This document shows, piece by piece, positions 4,581 through 18,225 of a stretch of DNA of 64,000 nucleotides. The notes below the pieces were generated by a model, which worked only from the letters and a program-made list of their open reading frames with translations, ran no database searches and was not told the DNA's origin. Made by a program: the position numbers and the translations under genes. The DNA is from Candidatus Omnitrophota bacterium (GTDB lineage Bacteria; Omnitrophota; Gorgyraeia; Duberdicusellales; 4484-171): positions 8,615 through 72,614 of the forward strand of contig JBAZGN010000005.1 of assembly GCA_041652815.1 (NCBI GenBank), read 5' to 3'. Position 1 is the stretch's first letter. Each line of letters begins with the position of its first letter.

Positions 4581-4617
4581 ACAAAGGCGTTCGCAAGAAC
4601 GCCTTTGTCTATTTTGT
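4581..4617 (+). terminator. Rho-independent terminator
   Basis: ACAAAGGCGTTC-GCAA-GAACGCCTTTGT hairpin followed by CTATTTTGT. Confidence 0.6.
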
Positions 4618-4720
4618 AGCACATTTTGGGAATTGATTCGGACAAGGGCGTCCTTTTTGGCAAAGTAATCAGCCAGTAGGGATGCCCTTTCTCTTTTTAG
4701 GGTAAGGGTGATGGTGAAAT

Positions 4721-5233
4721 ATGGATTTTAGAATATTACTGGAAAAAATAACGCCTGCGCTTAAATATATTGCGCGTAAGCACTTATTTTATAGTTTCTA
4801 CAGCGAAGAAGACCTTTACCAGGAAATGTGCCTTTATCTGTGGCAGCATTATGGAGGAGGATTGCCGATAGGCATAAATGAGGCTTATGTAATTAAGGGG
4901 TGCGAATTTCATATCCAGAATTTTTTAAGAAAAGGCCGGCCTAAGGCAGTAACCGCAAGCCTTGATGAGTTTATAACTCCCGGAGGTTTAACTTTCGCTG
5001 ATATTCTTGAAGACAAACGCGCAGATTTTCGTTTAAACATAGAGAGCAAGGTTACGATTGATGAGATAGCAAACATAGGTTTAACCGATAAAGAAAAATC
5101 TGTACTTTCTTATTTACTTAAAGGTTGCACAATACGCGAAATCGCAAAGGAGCTTGGAGTTTCGCATGTAATGGTTTTAAAGCACAAAAAAGAGATAATA
5201 AAAAAATGGCGCAAAAAAGGTTACCAAAAATAA
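4721..5233 (+). CDS. Sigma-70 family RNA polymerase sigma factor (small, region 2 plus region 4/LuxR-type HTH)
   Basis: 170 aa. The N-terminus has sigma region-2-like aromatic residues (YQEMCLYLWQHY). The C-terminus has an HTH, LTDKEKSVLSYLLKGCTIREIAKELGVSHVMV. RBS aagggtgatggtgaaatATG. Confidence 0.6.
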   Translation: MDFRILLEKITPALKYIARKHLFYSFYSEEDLYQEMCLYLWQHYGGGLPIGINEAYVIKGCEFHIQNFLRKGRPKAVTASLDEFITPGGLTFADILEDKRADFRLNIESKVTIDEIANIGLTDKEKSVLSYLLKGCTIREIAKELGVSHVMVLKHKKEIIKKWRKKGYQK

Positions 5234-5398
5234 CCTAAACTTTCCTGCCAAAATTTCCGCTTAACACATCTATCTATTATTTTATATCAAAACTAAGGTT
5301 ACCAAGGAGAATGTTTTTTTACTTGTATTAGTGTAGAACGCAAAGGAGCGTAAGCAATGTAAGGTTGTTTCAAAAAACATTGTTAGTGCCTTACGACA

Positions 5399-5441
5399 CA
5401 GGCGTCTTATAAATTTAGGAAAAAGACGCCTTTTATTTTTT
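5399..5441 (+). terminator. Probable intrinsic terminator downstream of the sigma gene
   Basis: AGGCGTCTT...AGACGCCT stem of 9 bp followed by TTTATTTTTT. Confidence 0.45.
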
Positions 5442-5461
5442 AGTAAGGAGGATAAAGCAGT

Positions 5462-5800
5462 ATGAAGAAAATAGAAGCAATAGTTCGTTCTGAAAAGGTT
5501 GGCGAAGTGCGGCAAGCCTTAGAGAAAATACATTATAAAGGCCTAACGCTTACGCAAGTTGATGGGCATGGTAATCAACGTGGAACTACGCAAAAGTGGA
5601 AAGACAAGGAATATAAAATTGGAATTATACCAAAAACAAAAATAGAAATTATTACTGAAGATAAAGATGTAGAAAAAATCCTTGATGTTATTGTTTTATC
5701 AGCGAGGACCGGAGAAATCGGTGATGGCAAAATATTCGTGTACACAGTAGATATGGCGTTAAGGATTAGAACAGGAGAAGCAGGGGTGAATGCTTTGTAG
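5462..5800 (+). CDS. glnB: Nitrogen regulatory protein P-II
   Basis: 112 aa. P-II fold signatures: MKKIEAIV, T-loop region GHGNQRG, GDGKIFVxxV, RIRTGE. RBS aaggaggataaagcagtATG. Confidence 0.85.
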   Translation: MKKIEAIVRSEKVGEVRQALEKIHYKGLTLTQVDGHGNQRGTTQKWKDKEYKIGIIPKTKIEIITEDKDVEKILDVIVLSARTGEIGDGKIFVYTVDMALRIRTGEAGVNAL

Positions 5801-5816
5801 AAAAAAGGGGGTTTTC

Positions 5817-7139
5817 ATGAGTTTAAGTAGAAAATTTTGCTTAATCACGATACTTACTTTTATGGGGGTTTTGTGGCTTATCGTTCCGGTATTTGCGCAA
5901 AACTCAGCTAAAATTGATACTGGCGATACAGCTTGGGTTTTATTATCTTCTACTTTAGTTATGTTAATGACCCCCGGCCTTGCATTTTTTTACGGCGGTA
6001 TGGTAAGGCGTAAAAATATGCTTAGTATATTAATGCAATGTTTCATGATCCTATGTGTATTAAGTATTCAATGGGTATTATTCGGCTATAGCCTTTCTTT
6101 TCATCCAGGTAAAGGTTTTTGGGGAGGTTTTGGCTGGTTTGGTTTAAACGGTGTAGGATTAGAGCCTTATGCTGATTATGCAGGGACTATTCCCCATCAA
6201 GCCTTTATGATTTTTCAGGCAATGTTTGCTATTATTACCCCCGCGCTTATTATCGGGGCGTTTGCTGAGCGGATGAAATTCTCGGCATTTTTAATTTTTA
6301 CAGTATTATGGGCAACCTTTGTATATGATCCGGTGTGCCACTGGGTTTGGGGAATGGGCGGTTGGCTGCGGAATTTAGGCGCGCTTGATTTTGCCGGCGG
6401 AACCGTCGTGCATATTAATGCCGGTATCGCAGCTTTGGTAGCGGCGTTAGTAATTGGCAGAAGAAAGAATCTGGATTCTAATACTCCGCCACCGCACAAT
6501 CTCCCTTTTGTAGTATTAGGAACAGGATTACTTTGGTTTGGTTGGTTTGGTTTTAATGCGGGAAGTGCTTTAGCGGCAAATGGTTTAGCGGTAAATGCAT
6601 TTGTGGTAACTAATACCGCAGCTGCCGCAGCCGGGCTATCGTGGGCGCTTTTAGAGTGGCTTCGTAATGGCAAACCTACAATGTTTGGGGTAGCCAGTGG
6701 TGCGGTAGCGGGGCTTGTGGCAATAACTCCGGCTGCAGGGTTTGTGGGCGTAATACCTGCAATAGTGATAGGAATTTTAGTAAGCGTTCTTTGTTTTACC
6801 GCCGTCAGTATCATTAAACCAAAATTAGGCTACGATGATGCATTGGATGCTTTTGGCGTTCATTGCGTAGGCGGTATTTGGGGCGCGTTAGCTACTGGTT
6901 TGTTTGCCTCTAAAGCAATAAATCCTGCGGGTGCGGATGGGTTATTTTTTGGTAATCCTAAACAATTTTTAATCCAATTATTGACGGTTCTCATAACAGT
7001 TGCCTATACTTTTATAGCCACCTTTATTATTTATAAATTAGTTAATTTGTTTGTTAGCGTACGGGTTGGCGAAAAAGAAGAACTTATGGGCCTTGACCTT
7101 ACGCAACACCGTGAAAGAGCGTATACGATATTAGAATAA
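5817..7139 (+). CDS. amt: Ammonium transporter (Amt family)
   Basis: Signal peptide plus 11-12 TM segments. Amt signatures: DFAGGTVVHINAGIAALVAALVIGRR, GWFGFNAGS, FGVHCVGGIWGALATGLFA. I moved the start to the ATG at 5817, preceded by aaaaaggggg, rather than the upstream track start. Confidence 0.9.
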   Translation: MSLSRKFCLITILTFMGVLWLIVPVFAQNSAKIDTGDTAWVLLSSTLVMLMTPGLAFFYGGMVRRKNMLSILMQCFMILCVLSIQWVLFGYSLSFHPGKGFWGGFGWFGLNGVGLEPYADYAGTIPHQAFMIFQAMFAIITPALIIGAFAERMKFSAFLIFTVLWATFVYDPVCHWVWGMGGWLRNLGALDFAGGTVVHINAGIAALVAALVIGRRKNLDSNTPPPHNLPFVVLGTGLLWFGWFGFNAGSALAANGLAVNAFVVTNTAAAAAGLSWALLEWLRNGKPTMFGVASGAVAGLVAITPAAGFVGVIPAIVIGILVSVLCFTAVSIIKPKLGYDDALDAFGVHCVGGIWGALATGLFASKAINPAGADGLFFGNPKQFLIQLLTVLITVAYTFIATFIIYKLVNLFVSVRVGEKEELMGLDLTQHRERAYTILE

Positions 7140-7272
7140 CGCGAATTCACGTTAATTGAATGCGAAGATACGCAAACAAATTCAATTCGCGATAATTCGC
7201 GTTTCCGCCAGAGGCGGATCCGCCCACATATGAAAAACGTCAGTGGCGGAAGATTCGCGATCATTCGCGTTA
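7140..7272. repeat. Nested-palindrome intergenic element, copy 1 (core TTCCGCCAGAGGCGGATCCGCCCACATAT...GTGGCGGAA)
   Basis: Outer inverted repeat TTCCGCCA/TGGCGGAA encloses a perfect 12-bp palindrome GGCGGATCCGCC. Flanks contain reiterated ATTCGCG/CGCGAAT units with AACGCGAAT...ATTCGCGTT termini. A second copy of the core lies at 11880-11960. Confidence 0.6.
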
Positions 7273-7288
7273 TAAAAAAGGAGTGAAT

Positions 7289-7630
7289 ATGAAACTAATT
7301 ATCGCTATCATCCAGCCTTACAAGTTAGAAGAAGTTAAAGAAGAGCTTTACAAGCAGGAAGTCAATCTTATTACCGTCAGCGAAGTGCTTGGTCACGGCC
7401 GGCAAAAGGGGATAACTGAAGTTTATCGCGGCGCAAAAGAAACAGGTAATCTCTTACGTAAAATACGCCTTGAAATTGCCGTAAACGAAAATTTCGTAGA
7501 ACCTACGATAAAAGCAATTGTTAAGGGCGCAAAAACCGGGGAAACCGGCGATGGAAAAATATTTGTATTAGACCTTAAAGAGTGTATTCGTATCCGTACT
7601 GAAGAACGCGGGCAATTAGCTATAGGATAG
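7289..7630 (+). CDS. glnK: Nitrogen regulatory protein P-II (GlnK-type, adjacent to amt)
   Basis: Canonical P-II: GHGRQKG T-loop, [15 protein letters not shown]. The track started at a GTG. I prefer the ATG at 7289 with RBS aaaaaaggagtgaat. Confidence 0.85.
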
Positions 7631-7672
7631 TTTTTCAGCTAAAAAGCGTATAAATAAGGAGATTTTTTATTT

Positions 7673-8935
7673 ATGCTAAAGAAAGTATTTCTTTTAATGA
7701 TGGCTTCTTTGTTGTGTTGCTGCCTTTCTTTCGCTGACGAGTTAACAAAAGATGAATTGATTCAAAAGCTGACGCAACGCGTTGAGCAATTAGAAAAGAA
7801 AGTTGAAGAGTTAAATAAAAAACAAGGCGTGTATGAAAATATCTCTGGTTCTTCAGAGGAAGTTATTCAAAAGAAAGTTGAAGACGCTTTAGCAAAGAAA
7901 GAAGAACAATCAGGAGGCCTGGCGAAAGCTTTAAAGAGCATTACCTTAAGCGGATTCGTTGATGCAGCCTATACCTATAATTTTAACAGGCTTAATTCAG
8001 GTACAAATACTGCAAGAGTATTTGATACTGAACCGAATAGTTTTACTCTACAAGCGGCAAAAATCGCCTTGGAAAAACTTCCGACCCCTGAAGATAGAGT
8101 TGGTTTTCGCACCGACGTTTTATTTGGCCAGGATGCCAAGATAATAAAACCGTATGGCTGGAATACGGATGATGTTAATCTTGAGCAAGCATACGCCGAC
8201 ATTCTATTTCCTCCTGGAAAAGGGTTAGATGTAAAAGCGGGCAAATTTGTTACTCTCGCCGGCGCGGAAGTGATTGAGTCAAAAGATAACTGGAATTTCT
8301 CACGGTCTTTGCTCTTTGGTTATGCTATTCCGTTTACGCATACGGGCTTACGCGCAAGTTACCCGCTTATGGATAATTTAACAGGGTTTTTCGGTGTGAA
8401 TAATGGCTGGGATGACATTAAGGATAACAATAAAGGAAAGTCTTTTGAAACTGCTTTAGCTTACACGGTATCGGATAAATTATCTTTTAATCTTACAGGA
8501 ATATTTGGGCCGGAACAACCTTCGAACAATCATTCCAATAGGGCTCTTGTTGATTTTGTCGCAACCTATAAACCGTTTGAGAAAATTACACTTAAGTTAA
8601 ATACCGATTATGGCCACGAAGACGATGCTGTAGCGCCGGGTAAAAACGGCGAATGGGCCGGTATTGCCGGATATATCCGTTATGACGTAAATAATTGGCT
8701 TAGTTTTTCAAATAGGACAGAATATTTTAGCGACCCGCAAGGTTTAAGAGTTGTAGCTGGGACGCCGCAGGATTTATGGGAAAATACTTTGACTACGGAA
8801 GTAAGGCCGTTTAAAAACATTATCACGCGCCTGGAGTATCGTTATGATGCGTCCAGCAAAGATGTTTTTACTAAAAATGAAACACCGATTGACCATCAAA
8901 GTACTATAGCAGCAGAGGCTATTTATATTTTTTAG
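7673..8935 (+). CDS. Outer-membrane porin with N-terminal coiled coil (phosphate-selective porin O/P-like family)
   Basis: 420 aa. Signal peptide, coiled coil ELIQKLTQRVEQLEKKVEELNKK, then a beta-rich sequence with alternating hydrophobic residues ending ...EAIYIF (terminal aromatic). Confidence 0.6.
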   Translation: MLKKVFLLMMASLLCCCLSFADELTKDELIQKLTQRVEQLEKKVEELNKKQGVYENISGSSEEVIQKKVEDALAKKEEQSGGLAKALKSITLSGFVDAAYTYNFNRLNSGTNTARVFDTEPNSFTLQAAKIALEKLPTPEDRVGFRTDVLFGQDAKIIKPYGWNTDDVNLEQAYADILFPPGKGLDVKAGKFVTLAGAEVIESKDNWNFSRSLLFGYAIPFTHTGLRASYPLMDNLTGFFGVNNGWDDIKDNNKGKSFETALAYTVSDKLSFNLTGIFGPEQPSNNHSNRALVDFVATYKPFEKITLKLNTDYGHEDDAVAPGKNGEWAGIAGYIRYDVNNWLSFSNRTEYFSDPQGLRVVAGTPQDLWENTLTTEVRPFKNIITRLEYRYDASSKDVFTKNETPIDHQSTIAAEAIYIF

Positions 8936-9329
8936 TGAGCACGTTGTTTCTGCAAGCGTTTAGCACGAAGTAAAAACAACAGTGCGGATTGACCCCGCAC
9001 CGACCTTGTTCTGGTGCAGGGTTATGTCGAATTCATAAATTTTCCAATGAATGATAATTTTTCCAATTTTCTTGATCCGATTGCAAAAGTCTGGAACAAC
9101 CAACAAGTATTACCTTATGCCTTGTCTATGCCAAAAGCAAAAATAGATAAGAAAATAAAGCCTTTTAAACGAAATCAGCCTCAAATCCAAGGTTTAAGCC
9201 CGACGAAAAAAGTTAAAACAAAAATAATTTTAAAAAAAGGTTACCAAGCAGGCTAAATCTTTACTTATATAGTAAAGGGTTAGAACTATAACCAGAGAAG
9301 CACAAGGTTTGTGCAAAAGCTATTAAAAC

Positions 9330-9372
9330 AAGGGTGTTTTAAGGCTATCAGAGCTTAAAACACCCTTTTTTT
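9330..9372 (+). terminator. Intrinsic terminator upstream of glnA
   Basis: AGGGTGTTTTAAG...CTTAAAACACCCT stem followed by TTTTTTT. Confidence 0.55.
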
Positions 9373-9399
9373 ATAACAAAAACATTAAAGGAGGTTGAA

Positions 9400-10731
9400 A
9401 TGGCTAAGAAGACAAAACAGGACATTCTAAAGTTAGTAAAGGAAAACGATGTAAAATTTATTCGTTTATGGTTTACCGATGTGTTGGGGCAAGTGAAGAG
9501 TTTTGCTATTACAGATAAGGAATTAGAGGGCGCCCTTGAAAACGGAATGGGTTTTGACGGTTCTTCTATCACTGGTTATCAGGATATAGAAGAATCCGAC
9601 ATGATCGCAATGCCAGATCCGGATACTTTTGCGATTTTACCCTGGCGGCCAAGCGAAAAAGCCGTTGCCAGAATGATTTGTAACGTGTTAAATCCCGATA
9701 AAACCCCGTATGAGGGTGACCCGCGTTATGTACTAAAAAGAGCACTAGAGCGCGCAAACAAAATGGGGTTTGACCATTATTATTTAGGGCCTGAATTAGA
9801 GTTCTTCTATTTTAAGACAGATTCGGCTACAGATATTTTAGATAAGGGGGGATATTTTGACCTTACAACGCTTGATGTTGCCAGCGATCTTCGGAGGGAA
9901 ACTGTTTTAGCTCTTGAAAAAATGGGCATCGACGTGGAATATTCCCATCATGAAGTTGCACCCAGCCAGCACGAGGTTGATATGCGTTATAAAGATGCGC
10001 TGGAAATGGCAGATAGCGTAATAACTTACAGGGTTGTTGTCAAAGAGATTGCGAGTAAGTTTGGAGTGTATGCCACTTTTATGCCAAAACCTATTTTTGG
10101 CCAGAATGGTTCAGGTATGCATACGCATCAGTCGCTATTTAAAGGAAGTAAAAATGCTTTCTTTGATGCAAAAGCGGATGATTCTCTTTCCGATACTGCC
10201 CGTTGTTTTATCGCCGGACTCCTTAAGCATTCAAAAGAAATATGCTCAATATTTGCCCAAACCACAAATTCTTACAAAAGGTTAGTGCCTGGTTACGAAG
10301 CGCCTGTATACATAGCATGGAGCCGTAGGAACAGAAGCGCGCTTATAAGGGTGCCGCTCTATTATCCGGGAAAAGAAAAAGCTACCAGGTGCGAATTTAG
10401 AGCATGTGACCCGGCATGCAATCCGTATCTTGCATTTGCCGCCATGCTTCATGCGGGGTTAGATGGTATAGAAAAAAAATATAAAGCGCCTAAACCGATG
10501 GATCAGAATTTGTATCATTTAACCGATGAGGAACGAAAAGAAAAAGGCATTGAAACATTACCTGATAACCTTGGGCACGCAATTGCCATAACCGAAAGCA
10601 GCGAACTTGTGAAGAAAGTTTTGGGAAAACATATTTTTCCAAGATTTGTTGAATTAAAGAAAAAAGAATGGGATGAGTACAGGATTCAAGTTCCTCAACA
10701 TGAACTTGATAAGTATCTTTCAATTTTATAG
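9400..10731 (+). CDS. glnA: Glutamine synthetase type I
   Basis: 443 aa. GS-I signatures: FDGSSI, DPDTFAILPW, KPIFGQNGSGMHTHQS, NSYKRLVPGYEAP, ALIRVP. RBS aaaggaggttgaaATG. Confidence 0.9.
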   Translation: MAKKTKQDILKLVKENDVKFIRLWFTDVLGQVKSFAITDKELEGALENGMGFDGSSITGYQDIEESDMIAMPDPDTFAILPWRPSEKAVARMICNVLNPDKTPYEGDPRYVLKRALERANKMGFDHYYLGPELEFFYFKTDSATDILDKGGYFDLTTLDVASDLRRETVLALEKMGIDVEYSHHEVAPSQHEVDMRYKDALEMADSVITYRVVVKEIASKFGVYATFMPKPIFGQNGSGMHTHQSLFKGSKNAFFDAKADDSLSDTARCFIAGLLKHSKEICSIFAQTTNSYKRLVPGYEAPVYIAWSRRNRSALIRVPLYYPGKEKATRCEFRACDPACNPYLAFAAMLHAGLDGIEKKYKAPKPMDQNLYHLTDEERKEKGIETLPDNLGHAIAITESSELVKKVLGKHIFPRFVELKKKEWDEYRIQVPQHELDKYLSIL

Positions 10732-10740
10732 GAAACTACG

Positions 10741-11448
10741 GTGATTCTTATCTTGCAGCATACAAAAGAGGAAGGGCCTGGAACGCTTGGCAGTTTCCTA
10801 AGAAACAGCAGCTGGGAGATAAGGATCACCCGTCTTTATAAAAAAGAAAAGTTACCGGATGATTTATCTAGAGTTGAGGCGGTTATAGTTATGGGTGGGC
10901 CAATGAATGTTTACGAAGAAAAAAAATTTCCATTCTTAAAGAGTGAAGATATCTTCTTAAAAAAAGTAATAGGCGAAGAAATTCCTATTCTGGGAATTTG
11001 TCTTGGCGCGCAGCTTTTAGCCAAAGCTCTTGGCGCAAAAGTAAAAAAAGCGCATCACGCGGAAATAGGGTGGGGTAATGTGAATTTAACAGATAATGGA
11101 AAGAATGACCAGCTTTTAAAAGGTTTAGATAAAAAACTAGACATCTTCCAGTGGCACGAAGATACTTTTGAACTTCCGAAAGGGGCGGCTCTACTTGCAA
11201 AAAATTCTTTATGCCCTAACCAGGCATTTCGCTACGGTAAAAACTGTTACGGATTGCAATTTCATATAGAAGTAGATGCTCCTTTAATTTTATGCTGGAT
11301 AAAAGATTATTGCAAAAGCCGTAATTTGAATATGCGGTTTAAGGGGCAAGAAATGTTATTTGATTATTATCAAAAGCAAGAAAAGTTCAACCGGCAAGCA
11401 GCAAATATTTATCTGAATTTTTCAAGGCTTATACAGCCGCTGAATTAA
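10741..11448 (+). CDS. Class-I glutamine amidotransferase (GATase1, GuaA-like small subunit type)
   Basis: 235 aa. ILGICLGAQLL with the catalytic Cys, and a His near the end (LQFHIE). GTG start immediately after glnA. Confidence 0.7.
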   Translation: MILILQHTKEEGPGTLGSFLRNSSWEIRITRLYKKEKLPDDLSRVEAVIVMGGPMNVYEEKKFPFLKSEDIFLKKVIGEEIPILGICLGAQLLAKALGAKVKKAHHAEIGWGNVNLTDNGKNDQLLKGLDKKLDIFQWHEDTFELPKGAALLAKNSLCPNQAFRYGKNCYGLQFHIEVDAPLILCWIKDYCKSRNLNMRFKGQEMLFDYYQKQEKFNRQAANIYLNFSRLIQPLN

Positions 11449-11529
11449 GCGTATAGGTTTTTTTGGAAAAGGTTGCATAAAATTTAGGCATAAATTGCCA
11501 GTGTTTAAGGAGGTTCATTAGCCCACAAT

Positions 11530-11763
11530 ATGGAACCGGATAAAATTGTAGATGAAATTTATAATTCTTTTTTAATCGGCAACGACGGAAAGGTTTATGC
11601 AAACACTATTGAATATATAGAAAAAATTATCATTGAAAAGGTACTTGAAAGAAGCTTCGGCAATCAATTCAGGGCAGCAAAGATTTTAGGGATTAATCGT
11701 AATACTTTACGTTCCAAAATAAAGAAATTGAATATAGACGCAAGTAGGTGGAAAGGTTATTGA
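11530..11763 (+). CDS. Standalone Fis-type helix-turn-helix DNA-binding protein
   Basis: 77 aa. C-terminal AAKILGINRNTLRSKIKKLNI matches the Fis/NtrC-C-terminal HTH. RBS taaggaggttcatta. Confidence 0.5.
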   Translation: MEPDKIVDEIYNSFLIGNDGKVYANTIEYIEKIIIEKVLERSFGNQFRAAKILGINRNTLRSKIKKLNIDASRWKGY

Positions 11764-11981
11764 TAGCTAATGAATAAAACTCTAAACCCTAAACTCGAAA
11801 CTCTAAACAAACTCGAAATCACAATGTTCCAAATCCTAAACGTTTCGAGTTTGGGATTTCGAGTTTGTAGTTTGTTTAGGATTTTCCGCCAGAGGCCCTC
11901 GGCTTCGCCGAGAGGCGAGCGGATCCGCCCACATATAAAAAATATATCGGTGGCGGAAGTGTTTAGAGTTTTAGGGTTTAA
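11764..11981. repeat. Compound palindromic repeat region containing copy 2 of the TTCCGCCAGAGGC...GGATCCGCCCACATAT...GTGGCGGAA core
   Basis: Terminal inverted repeats AAAACTCTAAACCCTAAA / TTTAGGGTTTAGAGTTTT-like. Internal AACTCGAAAC/GTTTCGAGTT reiterations. The core is near-identical to 7201-7250 with a 24-nt internal duplication. Both track ORFs here, 11757..12089(-) and 11770..11994(+), are spurious. Confidence 0.6.
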
Positions 11982-11983
11982 AT

Positions 11984-14900
11984 ATGAAATATAAGCATTT
12001 CCCAGGACAACAAGGTCTCTACTACCCGGAATATGAGCATGATTCTTGCGGGGTGGGGTTTGTTTGTAACATAAAAGGCCAGAAATCAAATGCTATCGTC
12101 CGGCAGGGAATTGAGGTTTTACGCCGGCTGTCGCACCGAGGAGCAGTAGGTTCGGACCCAAAAACCGGAGATGGCGCGGGAATCTTAATTCAGATCCCGC
12201 ACGAATTTTTTAAAAAGTCCGCTCAAGCAATAAAAATTAATTTACCGGAATTAGGTTTCTACGGCACCGGTTTGATATTTTTGCCGAAAGATATTAAAGA
12301 ACGTGAATTCTGTAAAAAAACATTTGAAAAAATTATAAAAGATGAAGGCCAAATTTTTTTAGGATGGCGTAGTGTGCCGATAGATAATTCGGATATAGGC
12401 AAAGGAGCCAAGGCCAGCGAGCCGGTTTTTGAACAAGTTTTTATTGAGAGAAACAAAGATGTAAGCGGGGAACTGGATTTTGAAAGGAAACTTTATGTAA
12501 TCAGAAAACAAGTGGAAAATATTATCCGTTCATCCGAATTACAGCAAAAGAAATCTTTCTATATTACTAATATTTCCACCCGCACATTTTCCTATAAGGG
12601 TTTGCTCATGCCTGGCCAGCTGGAGAACTTTTTTGTTGACCTTAAGGATGAAAGTATAGAAAGTTCACTATGTTTAGTGCATTCACGTTATAGTACTAAT
12701 ACTTTTCCTACCTGGGACTTAGCGCAGCCATTTAGATTCTTAGCTCACAACGGAGAAATAAATACTTTACGCGGGAATATAAACGGAGTACGGGCAAGAG
12801 AACGGTTAATTTCCAGCGAGATTTTTGGGGCAGATATAGAAAAGCTAAAACCAGTTATCGTTGAAGGAGGGAGCGATTCGGCTGCAATTGATAATCTATT
12901 TGAGCTGCTGGTTTTATCGGGCCGGCCCCTTGAGCATACAATGATGATGCTTATTCCTGCGGCTTGGGAACACGATAAATTTATGGATTGTGAGCTTAAA
13001 GATTTTTATAAATATCATGCTTGTTTTATGGAGCCTTGGGATGGGCCGGCGGCAATGGCTTTTACCGACGGAAAAAATATTGCTGCCGCTTTAGATAGAA
13101 ACGGACTTAGGCCAGCGCGTTATATTATAACTAAAAATGATTTTGTAGTGATGGCATCTGAGGTAGGCGTTTTGGATATTGCACCTAAAGATATTAAGAT
13201 TTCAGGCCGTCTTGAGCCGGGAAAATTATTTTTTATTGATACGCAAGCAGGCTGCATAGTAGACGATTCCCAGATAAAAAAAAGAGTATCCGGCAATTGC
13301 CCATATGGTAAATGGAATACCGAAAATATGGTTGATCTTGATAGCCTTGTAGGCGGCAGTACAGGCAATAAAAAACCCGCAGATATAATAGCTTGCCTTA
13401 AGGCTTTTGGTTATTCCCGGGAAGACCTGAAAATAGTTATTCGGCCTATGGCCGAAGAAGGGAAAGAGCCCGTAGGTTCAATGGGCAATGATACTCCGCA
13501 TGCTTTTTTGTCAAAGAAACCCCAGCTTCTTTATAGCTATTTTAAGCAATTGTTTGCGCAAGTAACAAATCCGGCGATAGATTCTATCAGAGAAAAGCTG
13601 GTGATGAGTTTAGAAAGTTTTATCGGCCCTGAGAAAAATATTTTAGAGGAAACTCCTAAGCATAGCCATAAACTTAAAGTAAGGAATCCGATATTAACAA
13701 ACGAAGAACTTATAAAAATTCGAGATATCAGCATAAATAATTTTAGAACCAAGACGATTTATACTTTTTTTGACGCAGTTAATCCTAAGGAAGGTTTTGT
13801 CCGCGCGCTGGAAAGGATTTGTTTTGAAGCGGAATATGCCATTGATAAAGGGTATTCTTTTATTATATTAAGTGACCGTGGAATTGATAAGGATAGAATT
13901 GCTTTGCCGGCACTTTTAGCAATGAGCGCAGTCCATCATTATCTGGTAAGAAAAACTATACGTTCGCAGGTTGCGATAATAGTTGAAAGCGCAGAGCCCA
14001 GAGAGGTACACCATTTTGCTTTGCTTTTTGGTTACGGCGCAGACTGCATAAACCCATATCTTGCCTATGAAACAATAGAATATCTTATCAGCGAAAAAGA
14101 GATTAATTTAGACCGTAAAAACGCATTGAAGAATTACAATAAAGCTTTAACAGACGGCATATTAAAAATATTGTCAAAAATGGGGATATCTACCTTAAGA
14201 AGCTATCGCGGAGCGCAAATATTTGAAGCTTTAGGTTTAGACGATGAGCTTATAGAGAAGTATTTTACCGGAACCGTATCGCGAATAGCCGGCGTTGGCC
14301 TTCCCGGGATAGCGCAGGAGACTATCGAAAGGCATAAAGAAGCTTTCGCCCAAAGAGGCGTAGTTAGCCCGTATTTAACCAGCGGTGGAATTTATCAATG
14401 GAAAAGAGATGGAGAATTTCATCTTTGGAATCCCGAAACTATCGCTGCCTTGCAAGATGCTACGCGCAATAACGATTATGACAAATATAAAGAATTTGCG
14501 CGGATGATAAATAATCAGTCAGATAATCCTGTGACCTTGAGAAGCTTGCTTAAGTTCAAAAAAGAAAAACCGATTCCTATTGATGAAGTTGAACCCGTTC
14601 AAAGTATTATGCGGCGTTTTACAACCGGCGCAATGAGTTTTGGTTCAATCAGTGCTTTAGCGCACGAAACAATTGCTATCGCCATGAACAGAATAGGCGG
14701 AAAATCTAACACCGGTGAAGGTGGCGAAGATCCGGACAGATTTACGGCCCTACCTAACGGCGACTCAAAAAGAAGCGCCGTAAAACAAGTTGCCTCCGGA
14801 AGATTCGGTGTCACTACAAACTATCTTGTTAATGCAGATGAAATACAAATAAAGATTGCTCAGGGGGCAAAGCCAGGCGAAGGAGGCCAATTACCGGGGC

Positions 14901-16513
14901 ATAAAGTAAGCCCGATAATCGCCCGAATCAGGTATACAACCCCCGGCGTTACTTTAATATCTCCGCCGCCGCATCATGATATATATTCTATTGAGGACCT
15001 TGCACAATTAATATTTGATTTAAAAAATGTTAATCCTCGCGCCCGCGTAAGCGTAAAGCTTGTATCAGAAGTAGGAGTAGGAACTGTTGCCGCAGGCGTT
15101 GCCAAAGGGCATGCGGATATGATTCTTATTTCCGGCGGAGACGGCGGCACCGGCGCATCTCCTCAGAGCTCAATAAGATATGCAGGGCTTCCGTGGGAGC
15201 TTGGCGTTAGCGAGACGCATCAAACACTCCTGCTGAATAATTTACGTTCAAGAGTGCGCATACAAACTGATGGGCAGATGCGAACCGGCCGCGATGTGGC
15301 AATAGCCGCTTTGTTAGGAGCGGAAGAATTTGGTTTTTGTTCGAGCGTGCTTGTTGTAAGCGGCTGCGTTATGCTTAGGCATTGCCAGCTTAATAATTGT
15401 TCAGTTGGCATAGCTACGCAAGATGAGGCTTTACAGAAACGCTTTGGAGGAAAACCTGAATATATAGTGAACTATTTTAATTTCATAACACAGGAACTAC
15501 GCGAAATTATGGCAAGTTTAGGCATAAGGACTATAAACGAAATGATTGGCCGCGCAGATCTTATTGAAGTAAATAAAGAGATTATTCCTTCCAAAGCGCG
15601 CGGAGTAAATTATTCCAAAATCCTTTATGTGCCGGAATTACCTCGAGATTATGCAAGATATTGTAAAGTAAAACAGGAAAGCGGGCTTGATTTTGTTTTA
15701 GACAAAGAACTTATAAAAATGTGTGGTGTTTTTAAAGAGAATGAGCCAATAAAAATTTCAGTTAAGATTAATAATACCAACAGAACTGCAGGTGCAATGC
15801 TTAGCGGAGAGTTAATCCGGCGCTATGGAGAAGCGGGGTTGCCCCATGATTCTATAGTTTGTAAATTTAAAGGCATTGCCGGCCAAAGTTTTGGCGCTTT
15901 TCTGGCGAAAGGAATTACTTTTGAATTAGAAGGTATGGCTAATGATTATGTTGGCAAAGGAATTTCCGGAGGAAAAATTATTATTTATCCAGATAAACAG
16001 ACAGGATATAAGGCCGAAGAAAATATTATTATTGGAAATACCGCGTTTTATGGTGCTATCGCTGGTGAAGCTTATATTGGAGGTGTTGCCGGCGAACGGT
16101 TTTGTATACGAAACTCAGGCCTTAAGGCAGTAGTTGAAGGCGTGGGGGATCATGGTTGCGAGTATATGACCGGCGGGTATGTCGCTATAATCGGTAAGAC
16201 CGGCCGTAATTTTGCCGCAGGTATGAGCGGCGGCATTGCGTATGTATATAATGCAGGAAAAGATTTTAATCAGAAATGTAATTTAGAAATGGTGGAGTTG
16301 GAAATTCTTTCCCAGAATGATGAAAAAGTACTTTACGATTTACTCTGTAACCATCATAAATACACTCAAAGCGCAATTGCTAAGAAAATTATTGAGCATT
16401 TTAAAAAAGAAATTAAACATTTTGTCAAAGTTATGCCAACAGAATATAAACGTATTTTAGCAGGGAAAAAAGCGATAAAGAAACCGGATTTGGTTGAGGT
16501 GTCAGATGGGTGA
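11984..16513 (+). CDS. gltB: Glutamate synthase large subunit
   Basis: 1509 aa. N-terminal amidotransferase domain with CGVGF, central domain, FMN domain (GEGGEDP, KQVASGRFGV), C-terminal GXGXG repeats. Confidence 0.95.
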   Translation: MKYKHFPGQQGLYYPEYEHDSCGVGFVCNIKGQKSNAIVRQGIEVLRRLSHRGAVGSDPKTGDGAGILIQIPHEFFKKSAQAIKINLPELGFYGTGLIFLPKDIKEREFCKKTFEKIIKDEGQIFLGWRSVPIDNSDIGKGAKASEPVFEQVFIERNKDVSGELDFERKLYVIRKQVENIIRSSELQQKKSFYITNISTRTFSYKGLLMPGQLENFFVDLKDESIESSLCLVHSRYSTNTFPTWDLAQPFRFLAHNGEINTLRGNINGVRARERLISSEIFGADIEKLKPVIVEGGSDSAAIDNLFELLVLSGRPLEHTMMMLIPAAWEHDKFMDCELKDFYKYHACFMEPWDGPAAMAFTDGKNIAAALDRNGLRPARYIITKNDFVVMASEVGVLDIAPKDIKISGRLEPGKLFFIDTQAGCIVDDSQIKKRVSGNCPYGKWNTENMVDLDSLVGGSTGNKKPADIIACLKAFGYSREDLKIVIRPMAEEGKEPVGSMGNDTPHAFLSKKPQLLYSYFKQLFAQVTNPAIDSIREKLVMSLESFIGPEKNILEETPKHSHKLKVRNPILTNEELIKIRDISINNFRTKTIYTFFDAVNPKEGFVRALERICFEAEYAIDKGYSFIILSDRGIDKDRIALPALLAMSAVHHYLVRKTIRSQVAIIVESAEPREVHHFALLFGYGADCINPYLAYETIEYLISEKEINLDRKNALKNYNKALTDGILKILSKMGISTLRSYRGAQIFEALGLDDELIEKYFTGTVSRIAGVGLPGIAQETIERHKEAFAQRGVVSPYLTSGGIYQWKRDGEFHLWNPETIAALQDATRNNDYDKYKEFARMINNQSDNPVTLRSLLKFKKEKPIPIDEVEPVQSIMRRFTTGAMSFGSISALAHETIAIAMNRIGGKSNTGEGGEDPDRFTALPNGDSKRSAVKQVASGRFGVTTNYLVNADEIQIKIAQGAKPGEGGQLPGHKVSPIIARIRYTTPGVTLISPPPHHDIYSIEDLAQLIFDLKNVNPRARVSVKLVSEVGVGTVAAGVAKGHADMILISGGDGGTGASPQSSIRYAGLPWELGVSETHQTLLLNNLRSRVRIQTDGQMRTGRDVAIAALLGAEEFGFCSSVLVVSGCVMLRHCQLNNCSVGIATQDEALQKRFGGKPEYIVNYFNFITQELREIMASLGIRTINEMIGRADLIEVNKEIIPSKARGVNYSKILYVPELPRDYARYCKVKQESGLDFVLDKELIKMCGVFKENEPIKISVKINNTNRTAGAMLSGELIRRYGEAGLPHDSIVCKFKGIAGQSFGAFLAKGITFELEGMANDYVGKGISGGKIIIYPDKQTGYKAEENIIIGNTAFYGAIAGEAYIGGVAGERFCIRNSGLKAVVEGVGDHGCEYMTGGYVAIIGKTGRNFAAGMSGGIAYVYNAGKDFNQKCNLEMVELEILSQNDEKVLYDLLCNHHKYTQSAIAKKIIEHFKKEIKHFVKVMPTEYKRILAGKKAIKKPDLVEVSDG

Positions 16514-16600
16514 GCGTTACACGTAACAAGTATCACGTAACACGTTTAAAAAAAGACGCGATACTTGTTACATGATACGTGTTACTTAATAAAGGAAAAG
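16514..16600. repeat. Palindromic GTAAC/CACGT-rich element (member of the GTATCACGTAAC-termini family) between gltB and gltD
   Basis: GTTACACGTAAC, GTAACAAGTATC...GATACTTGTTAC inverted pair, GTATCACGTAACACG. It shares terminal motifs with the elements at 23552-23662 and 50333-50461. Confidence 0.6.
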
Positions 16601-18064
16601 ATGGGTGATGTAAAAGGTTTTCTAAAAGTTAGGCGCCAAACAGCGAAATACAGGCCGGTTTGCGTGCGCGTAAAAGACTACCGTGAAGTGGCAATGCCGC
16701 GCTCTGATGAGGCTATGAAAGAGCAGGCATCGCGTTGTATGGACTGCGGAACTCCTTTTTGCCATTGGGGTTGCCCTCTGGGAAATTATATTCCCGAGTG
16801 GAATGACGCAGTTTTTCGCGGCCGATGGAAGAAAGCCTTTCAATTGCTTGAGGCAAGCAATAATTTTCCCGAATTTACCGGAAGGCTTTGCCCCGCGCTT
16901 TGTGAGTATGCTTGTATTTTGGGAATAAATGATGACCCGGTAACTATAAAAGAGAATGAATTGACGATTATTGAATATGCTTTTGATGCTGGTTTTATCC
17001 GGGCAAATCCGCCTAAAGTTCGTACCGGAAAAAAAATTGCTGTTATCGGTTCCGGCCCGTCCGGGCTTGCTTGCGCCAACCAGTTGAATAAAGCTGGGCA
17101 TAAGATAACGGTTTTTGAAAAGGATGACAAAATAGGAGGTATTTTACGCTACGGTATCCCGGATTTTAAACTTGAAAAGTGGCTCATTGACCGGCGGGTT
17201 AACCTGCTTGAGAAAGAGGGTATTGAATTTAAAACCAATGTGAATGCCGGCATAGGCTATAAAGCCTCAAAACTTAAAAAAGAATTTGATGCCATTGTGC
17301 TTACCGCTGGTTCCCGTGTTCCCCGTGACCTTAATATTGAAGGCCGAAAGCTCAACGGTATATATTTCGCTATGGATTATTTAATCCAGTCAAACAGAAG
17401 AGTTGCCAAAGAAAAAATACCCGTTAATAAGTTAATCGATGCCAAAGGAAAAAAAGTTGTTGTTATCGGCGGAGGAGATACCGGCGCTGATTGTGTCGGC
17501 ACGGCGAACCGGCAAGGCGCAAGCTGTGTGGTGCAAATTGAAATTATGCCAAAGCCTGAAGAATGCCGTACCAAAGAATACCCGTGGCCAAAATACCCGT
17601 TGATTTTAAGAACTTCTACTAGCCACGAAGAAGGAAGCGAGCGCCAGTGGAGCATTCTTACTAAAAAATTTATCGGTGAGAATGGTAAACTTGAGAAATT
17701 ATCTTGTGTCCGTGCCGAATTTATAAACGAACAACGAACAGCGAACGACAAACGGCAAGCTTGTCCGGTAATGCGCGAAATCCCTGGTTCTGAATTCGAG
17801 ATTAGCGCCGATATGGTCTTGCTGGCAATGGGTTTTGTGCATCCCGAACATTCAAAACTGCTTACAGATTTAGGCGTAGAACTGGATAAACGCGGCAATA
17901 TAAAAACAGATGCAAATTATATGACTTCCAATGAGAAAGTATTTTCTGCAGGAGACGCCAGAAGCGGCCAGTCATTAATTGTACGGGCTATTGCAGAAGG
18001 CAGGCAGGCTGCTTTCTGTGTTGATAAATATCTTATGGGCGAAAGTAGTTTGTCTATTATATAA
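16601..18064 (+). CDS. gltD: Glutamate synthase small subunit (NADPH)
   Basis: Fe-S cluster cysteines CMDCGTPFC and CPLGN; FAD/NAD Rossmann motifs GSGPSGLACA and VIGGGDTGADC. I moved the start to the ATG at 16601 (RBS aaaggaaaag). The track start lies inside the repeat. Confidence 0.9.
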   Translation: MGDVKGFLKVRRQTAKYRPVCVRVKDYREVAMPRSDEAMKEQASRCMDCGTPFCHWGCPLGNYIPEWNDAVFRGRWKKAFQLLEASNNFPEFTGRLCPALCEYACILGINDDPVTIKENELTIIEYAFDAGFIRANPPKVRTGKKIAVIGSGPSGLACANQLNKAGHKITVFEKDDKIGGILRYGIPDFKLEKWLIDRRVNLLEKEGIEFKTNVNAGIGYKASKLKKEFDAIVLTAGSRVPRDLNIEGRKLNGIYFAMDYLIQSNRRVAKEKIPVNKLIDAKGKKVVVIGGGDTGADCVGTANRQGASCVVQIEIMPKPEECRTKEYPWPKYPLILRTSTSHEEGSERQWSILTKKFIGENGKLEKLSCVRAEFINEQRTANDKRQACPVMREIPGSEFEISADMVLLAMGFVHPEHSKLLTDLGVELDKRGNIKTDANYMTSNEKVFSAGDARSGQSLIVRAIAEGRQAAFCVDKYLMGESSLSII

Positions 18065-18225
18065 GATTTGGTAACGGTTAAGGTAACCTATCATTATTAT
18101 TTTAGGTTACGCGCCTGCCGTAGGCAGGCAGGTTACCTAGGTTACACTAAATCACGAGTTTTTTGATGTAACCTTCGTAACCTACCCGTAACCTACGTAA
18201 CATATAGGCAGAAATAGCTGTTAAA
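18065..18225. repeat. GTAACC/GGTTAC heptamer array with central GC hairpin
   Basis: GGTAACGGTTAAGGTAACC; AGGTTAC-GCGCCTGCCGTAGGCAGGC-AGGTTAC; GTAACCTTC-GTAACCTACCC-GTAACCTAC-GTAAC at roughly 9-11 bp phasing, directly upstream of the 857-aa gene. Confidence 0.5.

What the first reader, a model, noticed from the sequence alone, without database searches (positions are those of the whole stretch)
7140..7272. Nested-palindrome element (TTCCGCCA ... GGCGGATCCGCC ... TGGCGGAA) present in two nitrogen-gene spacers (amt|glnK and fis-like|gltB)
A perfect 12-bp palindrome GGCGGATCCGCC sits inside an 8-bp outer inverted repeat. The core is nearly identical at 7201-7250 and 11880-11960, where the second copy carries a 24-nt internal duplication. 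Each copy is embedded in locally reiterated flanks (ATTCGCG units at the first site, AACTCGAAAC/GTTTCGAGTT units at the second). Dyad symmetry of this kind fits either a dimeric repressor operator common to nitrogen genes or a REP-type structural element. The spurious ORFs the track calls here should be ignored.
Basis: seen in the sequence. Interest (0 to 1): 0.55.

Follow-up and report, generated by a model that had tools for sequence, protein, structure and literature searches.

The report
Tiny mobile double-hairpin DNA element
The palindrome seen next to two nitrogen genes is not a nitrogen switch: it is two copies of a very small GC-rich double-hairpin insertion found in many uncultured bacterial phyla, often inserted in frame inside essential genes.

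Summary
Window 7203-7251 and 11884-11958 carry the same GC-rich core, and copy 2 has a 24-nt hairpin insert. The nitrogen-operator reading fails. Relatives with at least 90% identical GlnA have 12-40 nt amt|P-II spacers and overlapping HTH_8/gltB genes, with no element. Long-form copies in other genomes lie beside coaD, an M16 peptidase gene, hrcA, pdxA and cbiM.

The core belongs to a large family whose basic form is a 30-bp dyad, TCCGCC-NNA-GGCGGA|TCCGCC-TNN-GGCGGA. It occurs in MAGs labelled Omnitrophota, candidate-phyla-radiation bacteria (CPR), Elusimicrobia, Planctomycetia, Dehalococcoidia, Kiritimatiellaeota and Binatia. The metagenome scan stopped at its 120-locus limit.

Filled and empty TatD alleles show a precise 30-bp insertion with no target duplication, at the same codon boundary in two lineages. 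Of 93 perfect copies, 58 lie in long ORFs in one frame, encoding S-A-x-G-G-S-A-x-G-G (DnaE, PolA, MutS, MutL, DnaK and others). Stems are conserved or co-vary within each 15-mer (14 changes keep pairing, 2 break it), and loops vary.

Best reading: a selfish insertion of the REP/REPIN (repetitive extragenic palindrome) kind, whose mobilising enzyme is unknown. I found no published description.

The parts
7203..7251 (+). Core copy 1 (long form). Hairpin 1 is 7204-7218 (TCCGCC-AGA-GGCGGA). Hairpin 2 is 7219-7250 (TCCGCC, an expanded AT-rich loop CACATATGAAAAACGTCAGT, then GGCGGA).
   Evidence: the same 22-mer occurs in other genomes
7138..7203 (+). Site-1 left arms: an AT-rich imperfect hairpin with arms 7138-7161 and 7180-7203 (24 nt, 83% complementary). 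The sequence is specific to this site.
   Evidence: (I1); no match in other loci
7253..7273 (+). Site-1 right arm: a direct repeat (95%) of 7185-7203, and complementary to 7136-7146.
   Evidence: D1, I5
11884..11958 (+). Core copy 2 (long form). Hairpin 1 is 11885-11923, hairpin 2 is 11924-11957.
11897..11920 (+). 24-nt insert inside hairpin 1 of copy 2 (CCTCGGCTTCGCCGAGAGGCGAGC). It partly duplicates CGCCAGAGGC and extends hairpin 1 with a nested GC stem.
11775..11883 (+). Site-2 left arms: units with a period of about 7 nt (AAACYCK) followed by their complements. They form a long imperfect hairpin (11777-11808 with 11842-11873).
   Evidence: (I1, I3, D1-D5)
11958..11988 (+). Site-2 right arm (GTGTTTAGAGTTTTAGGGTTTA). 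It is a direct repeat of the near-left flank and complementary to 11760-11790. It runs into the gltB start codon at 11984.
   Evidence: (I2, D7)

Best explanation
Each site holds a copy of a small, non-coding, GC-rich double-hairpin insertion element. The basic unit is a 30-bp dyad made of two 15-bp hairpin units in inverted orientation: TCCGCC-NNA-GGCGGA | TCCGCC-TNN-GGCGGA. The window carries a long form seen mainly in MAGs labelled Omnitrophota, in which the loop of hairpin 2 is expanded. In copy 2 the loop of hairpin 1 is expanded as well.

Shown: the element is inserted DNA and not ancestral regulatory sequence. It enters precisely, without target-site duplication, at sites with T at -2 and A at +2. 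It spreads or persists independently of gene function, and it survives in ORFs mainly in the one frame that reads as a flexible Ser/Ala/Gly linker.

Inferred: it is mobilised in trans by an enzyme that recognises the hairpins or cruciform. A REP/RAYT-like or IS200/IS605-like single-strand mechanism is the closest model, but the enzyme was not identified. The stable palindrome then provokes replication slippage or template switching. This would build the site-specific direct and inverted AT-rich arms wherever selection allows, that is, in spacers.

Inferred for this window: the two modules pushed apart genes that are tightly spaced or overlapping in relatives. They add very stable RNA and DNA hairpins between amt and glnK and between the HTH_8 gene and gltB. 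Any effect on nitrogen-gene expression is a by-product, such as loss of translational coupling or a barrier to 3' exonucleases. It is not a conserved control mechanism.
For: Family and breadth. An exact 22-mer scan of species-representative genomes gave about 15 true copies. They came from MAGs labelled Omnitrophota, Moranbacteria, Falkowbacteria, Binatia, Elusimicrobia, Planctomycetia, Dehalococcoidia and Kiritimatiellaeota.

Insertion polymorphism. TatD L022 reads ...AAT TTG|30 bp|GAT ATT..., against empty L154 ...GAA TTT|AAT ATT.... L155 reads ...AAA TTT|30 bp|GAT TAT..., against empty L156 ...ATT TTT|GAT TAT.... The two filled alleles sit in separate clades and share the same codon boundary.

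Absence from orthologous spacers of close relatives.

Frame bias. Of 93 perfect copies, 58 lie in stop-free frames of at least 150 aa in frame 0, against 8 and 6 in the other two frames. The hosts are real genes with Pfam domains on both sides of the insert: DnaE, FtsK, UvrC, DnaK, AlaRS, MutL and an ABC1 kinase, plus PolA, MutS, HflX, TatD and QueA by reading the translations.

Flanks. T at -2 in 86% of copies, A at +2 in 84%, both in 74%, and no general duplication.

Structure is under constraint. Stems are invariant while loops vary. Fourteen two-sided changes keep Watson-Crick pairing within one 15-mer and 2 break it.

Local repeats. Exact direct matches of at least 7 nt between the two flanks occur in 8 of 92 copies (0.7 expected), and inverted matches of at least 9 nt in 4 (0.1 expected). 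L019 and L115 show duplicated copies of the uninterrupted target sequence next to the filled site.

No nitrogen link. Long-form copies lie at rsmD|coaD, trpA|M16 peptidase, upstream of hrcA, surA|pdxA and nikR|cbiM.

Both window modules fold far better than shuffles, with z = -5.0 and -7.4.
Against: No transposase or other recurrent gene was found in 0.86 Mb around 136 copies, nor between closely spaced copies. Mobility is therefore inferred from distribution and was not observed.

Both window copies sit within 4.7 kb inside one nitrogen cluster. By my own rough count of spacers, random placement would give this only about 2% of the time. Local hopping or a recent local function could explain it.

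All 7 long-form copies have the same orientation as their flanking genes. This would also fit an RNA-level role.

Identical stems across phyla are unusual for REP-like repeats, which are normally specific to a lineage.

The arms are new sequence relative to relatives, and their origin by slippage or template switching is conjecture.

The phylum labels rest on the titles of MAG records.
Confidence: 0.72

Rival explanations
1. Operator for a dimeric nitrogen regulator: the dyad is bound as duplex DNA and co-regulates amt/glnK and gltB.
For: The sequence has dyad symmetry. Both window copies lie in spacers of one nitrogen-assimilation cluster, 26-38 nt upstream of start codons.
Against: It is absent from the same spacers in all relatives examined, where the genes are 12-40 nt apart or overlap. 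L002/L003 encode an identical P-II protein but lack the core. The same element lies inside ORFs and beside unrelated genes in many phyla. No promoter-like site lies at either copy. A different motif, AGGTTACCAA, is the one conserved upstream of glnA and the amt operon across relatives.
Confidence: 0.03
2. A domesticated RNA-level cis element: once transcribed, the hairpins act in the mRNA. They could protect the upstream amt or HTH_8 message from 3' exonucleases, set the relative expression of neighbouring cistrons, or mask and unmask the downstream start through the alternative pairings A:A' and A:A''. REP sequences do this in some E. coli operons.
For: All 7 long-form copies are co-oriented with their flanking genes and lie between co-directional genes, 20-90 nt upstream of a start codon. 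The modules are strongly structured, with z = -5.0 and -7.4. Each module has one 5' arm that could pair with either of two 3' arms. The same layout appears by eye in L016 and L005.
Against: All genes in the window are on one strand and GC skew is positive throughout, so orientation is confounded with replication direction. The arms are not conserved between sites. There is no T-run and no terminator-like site. Single-sided stem changes on the sense strand give 10 G.U against 6 A.C, which is not significant. No Rfam family matches. Close relatives manage without the element.
Confidence: 0.17
3. Not mobile: the hairpins arise repeatedly in place by a local mutational process (fold-back or template-switch synthesis), or they are an assembly or sequencing artefact.
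For: Template switching is known to create local inverted repeats (PMC10710096). The arms around the cores are local duplications.
Against: The same 24 specified bases recur at unrelated sites and in different phyla, so they cannot derive from local sequence. The window and the separately recorded ENA contig L001 carry identical copies at both sites. The TatD insertions come from separate projects. Natural variation includes compensatory changes.
Confidence: 0.04

Closest known systems
REP / BIME / REPIN elements mobilised by RAYT (TnpA-REP) transposases (PMC3116915, PMC2817692, PMC3733652)
   Same: Both are short GC-rich imperfect palindromes that form hairpins. The replicating unit is a doublet of two units in inverted orientation. 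Both are non-coding, lack target duplication and are presumed to be mobilised in trans. In spacers they can act as mRNA hairpins.
   Different: This element is half the size or less, at 30 bp with no spacer between units. It lacks a GTAG/CGTC tag. Most copies lie inside ORFs. The stem sequence is shared across phyla instead of being lineage-specific. No RAYT gene was found nearby. The density seen here is low, roughly one copy per 30-80 kb.
Rickettsia palindromic elements (RPE) (background knowledge; mentioned in PMC1779305)
   Same: [quoted passage not shown]
   Different: RPEs are about 100-150 bp and confined to Rickettsia. There is no sequence relation. The present element is 30 bp and encodes a fixed S-A-x-G-G-S-A-x-G-G decapeptide readable on either strand.
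Mitochondrial GC clusters (yeast GC42, PMC4478555), double-hairpin elements of Allomyces (Paquin et al. 2000, cited in PMC4478555) and sponge repetitive hairpin-forming elements (PMC2800124)
   Same: All are GC-rich hairpin or double-hairpin elements of tens of bp scattered in AT-rich genomes. Stems are conserved and substitutions concentrate in loops. Presence/absence polymorphism indicates mobility, and the mechanism is unknown.
   Different: Those elements are organellar and this one is bacterial. GC42 has an AG target duplication, whereas none is seen here. There is no sequence similarity. The present family is shared among distant phyla.
IS200/IS605-family ends and their non-autonomous derivatives (background knowledge)
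   Same: Both have hairpins at the two ends and insert without target duplication next to a short preferred sequence. Orientation bias relative to replication is expected for single-strand transposition.
   Different: Those elements have a one-sided tetra- or pentanucleotide target and spacers between hairpin and cleavage site. Here the flank preference is two-sided (T at -2 and A at +2 in 74% of copies) and the element is nothing but the two hairpins. No TnpA gene was identified.
PARCEL palindromic amphipathic repeat coding elements (PMC2996958; title and abstract only)
   Same: By its title, this is a palindromic coding repeat that is horizontally distributed among distant microbes.
   Different: By its abstract, PARCELs concern intragenic tandem repeats and repeat proteins. 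The present element is a single 10-codon insertion into unrelated housekeeping proteins and also occurs in spacers.

Membership tests
Operator of a nitrogen regulon | Conserved at orthologous promoters or spacers in related genomes | tested here: not met
   Relatives L157-L167 have amt|P-II spacers of 12-40 nt and overlapping HTH_8/gltB genes, with no core. L002/L003 have an unrelated spacer.
Operator of a nitrogen regulon | Copies enriched next to functionally related genes | tested here: not met
   Long-form copies lie beside coaD, an M16 peptidase gene, hrcA, pdxA and cbiM. Short forms lie inside DnaE, FtsK, UvrC, DnaK, AlaRS, MutL, PolA, MutS, HflX and TatD.
REP / REPIN | Short GC-rich imperfect palindrome able to form a hairpin, with stems under constraint | tested here: met
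   Each hairpin has a 6-bp stem and a 3-nt loop. Fourteen compensatory changes keep pairing and 2 break it.
REP / REPIN | Replicative unit is two REPs in inverted orientation | tested here: met
   The first loop ends in A in 84 of 93 copies and the second starts with T in 82 of 93, so the 30-mer is dyad-symmetric about GGA|TCC.
REP / REPIN | Extragenic location | tested here: not met
   At least 58 of 93 perfect copies lie in long ORFs, in frame.
REP / REPIN | Conserved GTAG or CGTC tag at one end (PMC3733652) | tested here: not met
   The flank profile shows only T at -3 to -1 and A at +1 to +3.
REP / REPIN | Cognate RAYT gene, typically flanked by REPs | tested here: inconclusive
   No protein family recurs in more than 6 of 136 loci (0.86 Mb). 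Genes between paired copies in L139 are cobalamin-synthesis genes. Whole genomes were not available.
REP / REPIN | Tens to hundreds of copies per genome | tested here: inconclusive
   There are 2 copies in this 64-kb window and 3 on short contigs of one MAG. In 9 of the 120 metagenome loci the scan pattern matches at two or more separate places.
MITE (DDE-transposon derived) | Terminal inverted repeats plus target-site duplication | tested here: not met
   The two halves are inverted repeats, but filled and empty TatD alleles show no duplication, and there is no general flank repeat.
IS200/IS605-type single-strand elements | End hairpins, no target duplication, insertion 3' of a fixed short one-sided target | tested here: inconclusive
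   Hairpins and absence of duplication are met. The flank preference is two-sided rather than one-sided. Transposase not tested.
Known structured RNA families (riboswitches, ribozymes, sRNAs in Rfam 15) | Match to a covariance model | tested here: not met
   No hit at gathering score in the window, and only chance-level miRNA-like hits at E up to 10 in 6800-12300.
Rickettsia palindromic elements | In-frame insertion into ORFs; about 100-150-bp RPE consensus; Rickettsia host | tested here: not met
   In-frame insertion is shared. Size and host differ. Sequence relation to RPE consensus was not tested.

The most novel reading that the evidence does not exclude
The 30-bp dyad TCCGCC-NNA-GGCGGA|TCCGCC-TNN-GGCGGA is an undescribed class of minimal mobile DNA. 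It is shared with identical stems among CPR, Omnitrophota, Elusimicrobia, Planctomycetota, Chloroflexota and other uncultured lineages. It inserts precisely, without target duplication, at T|A-type sites. It persists in essential genes because either strand translates it as a Ser/Ala/Gly linker. If so, an unrecognised hairpin- or cruciform-specific enzyme, exchanged horizontally among these lineages, moves it. The element would then be a natural source of protein insertions and of new structured intergenic spacers such as the two in this window.
Probability: 0.4. Interest if true: 0.8.

Novelty: new variant of a known kind. Interest (0 to 1): 0.62.

Why it matters
For this window, it removes a false lead. 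The palindrome is not the nitrogen operator, and a different conserved motif (AGGTTACCAA) is the better candidate.

More broadly, the family would be among the smallest mobile DNAs known, and it crosses phylum boundaries. It adds 10-residue linkers to core replication, repair and translation proteins of small-genome uncultured bacteria. It also converts overlapping or tightly coupled genes into separated cistrons with strong hairpins between them.

It offers a tractable way to find a new hairpin-specific DNA enzyme, by profiling which genes co-occur with the element across genomes. It is also a practical warning for annotation: it causes spurious ORFs in spacers, unexpected insertions in marker proteins and palindromes that disturb assembly.

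Tried and rejected
- **Rfam.** Searches at gathering score over the whole window and at E up to 10 over 6800-12300 gave nothing relevant. Known riboswitches, including the glutamine classes I recalled from memory, are rejected.
- **Promoter and terminator scan, 4600-12200.** No site lies at either copy. The sigma-54-like spacing I saw by eye in TGGCGGAAGATTCGC at site 1 is not kept at site 2, so I rejected it.
- **Leader peptide.** A small ORF starting at the ATG inside copy 1 has no counterpart in copy 2 (ATA at that position), so I rejected it.
- **Conserved arms.** The arms of the two sites match nothing in 167 loci. The apparent similarity to the L005 flanks extends only about 13 nt to the left and 5 nt to the right beyond the core.
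- **Partner gene.** All-against-all clustering of 2,029 ORFs around 136 copies gave no family in more than 6 loci. Genes between paired copies in L139 are cobalamin genes.
- **Cultured-organism collections.** The 36-nt consensus has no match in PLSDB plasmids or INPHARED phages. The viral-contig scan gave one new true copy plus one contig identical to L024, and the rest looked like chance.
- **RNA versus DNA selection.** Wobble-type changes on the sense strand gave 10 against 6, which is not informative.
- **Literature.** Nine full-text searches by sequence, encoded peptide and keywords found no description of this element.
- **Other ideas considered by reasoning only.** I dropped integron attC sites, archaeal-type bulge-helix-bulge splicing motifs, protelomerase sites, DNA-uptake sequences and library adaptors.

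Full report
**1. The observation**

The sequence is as described. Copy 1 is TTCCGCCAGAGGCGGATCCGCCCACATATGAAAAACGTCAGTGGCGGAA at 7203-7251. Copy 2 lies at 11884-11958 and has the same outer 8-mers. The 12-bp palindrome is exact only in copy 1; copy 2 reads AGCGGATCCGCC (2 matches at one mismatch or fewer, 0.07 expected). The gapped outer/inner pattern matched none of 100 shuffles.

Copy 2 has exactly 24 extra bases (11897-11920). They partly duplicate CGCCAGAGGC and form their own GC-rich stem.

The flanks are locally reiterated. At site 1, a 19-mer immediately to the left of the core (7185-7203) recurs at 95% identity immediately to the right (7253-7271). An inverted copy further left (7138-7161) forms an AT-rich hairpin. 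At site 2, units of about 7 nt and their complements form 25-32-nt inverted arms and a right-hand repeat. A fuzzy search for the 15-mer hairpin unit found no further copy in the 64 kb.

**2. Gene context and organism**

The gene order is as follows:
- LuxR/GerE-type regulator, 4721-5233
- P-II, 5462-5800
- Amt, 5790-7139
- [copy 1]
- P-II, 7289-7630
- OmpL-like porin, 7673-8935
- GlnA, 9400-10731
- class-I amidotransferase, 10741-11448
- 77-aa HTH_8 protein, 11530-11763
- [copy 2]
- GltB, 11984-16513
- GltD, 16565-18064

Exact look-up of three window proteins names the source as a Candidatus Omnitrophota MAG. All ORFs of at least 130 aa that are not nested within a longer plus-strand ORF are on the plus strand, and GC skew is positive throughout.

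**3. The nitrogen-operator idea fails its own test**

The GlnA cluster at 90% identity gave relatives L157-L167. In all of them the amt|P-II spacer is 12-40 nt, and the HTH_8 gene overlaps gltB by 4-19 nt. None contains the core (regex check; alignments).

Contigs L002/L003 encode a P-II protein identical to the window's. Their 78-nt spacer holds a different local hairpin and no core.

So both modules, about 130 nt and 220 nt including arms, are additions specific to this lineage. They are not conserved control regions.

Long-form copies in other genomes lie at rsmD|coaD (L005), trpA|M16 peptidase (L008), upstream of hrcA (L009), surA|pdxA (L010) and nikR|cbiM (L016). No promoter-like or terminator-like site coincides with either copy, and Rfam has no match.

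**4. What the core is**

An exact scan of one genome per species for CCGCCAGAGGC-N(0-30)-GGATCCGCCCA gave 21 loci. About 15 are clearly the same element. They come from MAGs labelled Omnitrophota, Moranbacteria, Falkowbacteria, Binatia, Elusimicrobia, Planctomycetia, Dehalococcoidia and Kiritimatiellaeota. The hits with non-zero gaps in high-GC genomes look like chance.

Most copies are a shorter form: TCCGCC-NNN-GGCGGA-TCCGCC-NNN-GGCGGA.

Among 93 perfect 30-mers:
- The first loop ends in A in 84 copies, and the second starts with T in 82. The commonest loops are AGA, AAA, GGA and GAA, and their pyrimidine mirrors.
- The second loop is the exact reverse complement of the first in 12 copies.

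The element is therefore two 15-bp hairpin units in inverted orientation, abutted at GGA|TCC.

**5. Evidence that it is inserted, mobile-type DNA**

TatD of a Falkowbacteria MAG (L022) carries [10 protein letters not shown], which its closest homologues (70-75% identity) lack. Two more distant TatD proteins (P0027, P0042) carry SARGGSA[L/S]GG at the same alignment column, while their own nearer relatives lack it.

At the DNA level:
- L022 reads GAA AAT TTG | 30 bp | GAT ATT, against the empty L154, GAA GAA TTT | AAT ATT.
- L155 reads AAA TTT | 30 bp | GAT TAT, against the empty L156, ATT TTT | GAT TAT.

The insertion is exactly 30 bp, with no target duplication, at the same codon boundary in two clades.

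**6. Coding copies**

Of the 93 perfect copies, 58 lie in stop-free frames of at least 150 aa in the frame reading S-A-x-G-G-S-A-x-G-G. The other two frames hold 8 and 6, and 21 copies lie in short frames. None of the three frames contains an obligatory stop, so the bias is not an artefact of the sequence itself. By my own chi-square calculation, the departure from equal use of frames is about 72.

The hosts are genuine genes with Pfam domains on both sides of the insert or around it:
- DnaE (between the PHP and NTPase domains)
- FtsK (before the gamma domain)
- UvrC, DnaK (C-terminal tail), AlaRS, MutL (linker), an ABC1 kinase and an LptC-like protein
- PolA, MutS, HflX, TatD, QueA and a group II intron reverse transcriptase, identified from their translations

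By eye, several copies directly follow an ATG.

**7. Structure under constraint**

Allowing up to 5 mismatches in the 24 specified positions gave 72 further hits in 1.13 Mb, against 1 in reversed-sequence controls. Within the variants with 1-4 mismatches, 14 two-sided changes keep Watson-Crick pairing within a single 15-mer, and 2 break it. Examples are TCTGTC..GACAGA, TCCACC..GGTGGA, TCAGCC..GGCTGA and TGCGCC..GGCGCA.

These changes preserve the tandem hairpins (half-sites 1:2 and 3:4) and would break the nested pairing (1:4). ViennaRNA also folds both window copies as two tandem hairpins within the full modules. The modules fold far better than shuffles, with z = -5.0 and -7.4.

Whether the selected structure forms in DNA or in RNA could not be decided. 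Single-sided transitions on the sense strand give 10 G.U against 6 A.C.

**8. The arms**

The arms are site-specific and match nothing in other loci. Because relatives have no spacer at all at the gltB site, the arms are new sequence and not a pre-existing target.

Across the family, flanks share exact direct repeats of at least 7 nt in 8 of 92 copies (0.7 expected). They share inverted repeats of at least 9 nt in 4 copies (0.1 expected).

In L019 the element sits in the third copy of a 33-nt tandem repeat, in frame inside HflX. In L115 it interrupts a duplicated 5' fragment of tRNA-Val that lies 100 nt upstream of the intact gene.

I infer that the stable palindrome promotes slippage or template switching, and that the products are kept where selection allows. 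This step is conjecture.

**9. Mechanism and its limits**

What is shown: precise insertion without duplication, a two-sided T/A flank preference, hairpin constraint, independence from gene function and a breadth spanning several phyla.

What is inferred: mobilisation in trans by a hairpin- or cruciform-specific enzyme.

No candidate gene recurs near copies. The consensus is absent from PLSDB plasmids and INPHARED phages.

All 7 asymmetric long-form copies are co-oriented with their flanking genes. This fits either strand-specific single-strand insertion or an RNA-level constraint. In this window the two cannot be separated, because every gene is on the leading-type strand.

That both window copies lie 4.7 kb apart in one cluster and belong to the same long-form subtype is most simply explained by a local duplication or hop.

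**10. Comparison with known systems**

The closest kinds are these:
- REP/REPIN elements mobilised by RAYT (PMC3116915, PMC2817692, PMC3733652)
- Rickettsia palindromic elements
- Mitochondrial GC clusters and double-hairpin elements. In yeast GC42, stems are conserved, loops vary and mobility is inferred from presence/absence (PMC4478555).
- Sponge repetitive hairpin-forming elements (PMC2800124)

The element works like these but fails the defining tests for REPs (extragenic location, GTAG/CGTC tag) and for MITEs (target duplication). Nine full-text searches found no description of it. The library is incomplete, so prior description cannot be excluded.

**11. Verdict**

The operator interpretation is refuted and the REP-type alternative is supported. 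The finding opens onto a family of minimal palindromic insertions that spans phyla and appears to be undescribed.

For the nitrogen genes themselves, the better regulatory candidate is AGGTTACCAA. It occurs exactly three times in the window, all in the cluster, and its 9-nt core GGTTACCAA is conserved at the corresponding upstream positions in the relatives.

Noticed in passing
window 5218-5227, 5296-5305, 9238-9247 (and 18130-18139 with one mismatch): AGGTTACCAA occurs exactly three times in 64 kb, all inside the nitrogen cluster: upstream of the first P-II/amt operon and about 160 nt upstream of glnA. GGTTACCAA is kept at the corresponding upstream positions in every relative fetched (L157-L167, L002). 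It is a better candidate for a shared nitrogen-cluster operator or promoter element than the palindrome.
   Followed up: partly
window 9324-9373: A perfect hairpin (AAAACACCCTT...AAGGGTGTTTT) followed by a T-run lies in the glnA leader about 25 nt before the ribosome-binding site. It looks like an intrinsic terminator or attenuator upstream of glnA. By eye, a T-run after a GC-containing segment is also present in the L157 leader.
   Followed up: no
window 1-64000: Every ORF of at least 130 aa that is not nested within a longer plus-strand ORF is on the plus strand, and GC skew is positive in all 16 bins. This extreme co-orientation confounds any test of element orientation against transcription versus replication.
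   Followed up: partly
window 5462-7630: Two P-II genes flank amt (P-II, amt, P-II), and the second is followed by an OmpL-like beta-barrel porin. In relatives the layout is porin-like gene, amt, a single P-II, and glnA follows directly. This lineage has rearranged the cluster as well as acquiring the two elements.
   Followed up: partly
L115 3266-3320 and 3372-3448: A 30-bp element interrupts a duplicated 5' fragment of tRNA-Val at the D-loop (GGGCCCGTAGCTCAGTT | element | GGTGAGAG). The intact tRNA-Val lies about 100 nt downstream. An uninterrupted copy of the target therefore sits next to the filled site.
   Followed up: partly
L019 5500-5630: Inside HflX, the element is embedded in frame in the third copy of a 33-nt tandem repeat (encoding KGGHPAISPLV) and is followed by a single variant hairpin, TCCCGCC-AAA-GGCGGGA. 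Together they add about 45 residues to a loop of the GTPase.
   Followed up: partly
L014 1763-2483 and 5937: An Elusimicrobia MAG contig carries four copies of a related single hairpin with a different stem (CCCGCC-ATA-GGCGGG), plus one canonical double hairpin. This suggests sister families of 15-17-nt hairpin units.
   Followed up: no
family-wide: The commonest single changes in the stems are transitions at the CpG of CCGCC/GGCGG (GGTGGA, TCCACC, TCTGCC). This fits CpG hypermutability and possibly cytosine methylation in these organisms.
   Followed up: no
L024 / L031 6748-6781: A copy forms the last 10 codons of a group II intron reverse transcriptase/maturase ORF in an Omnitrophota contig. 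The same contig is also filed in IMG/VR as viral.
   Followed up: no
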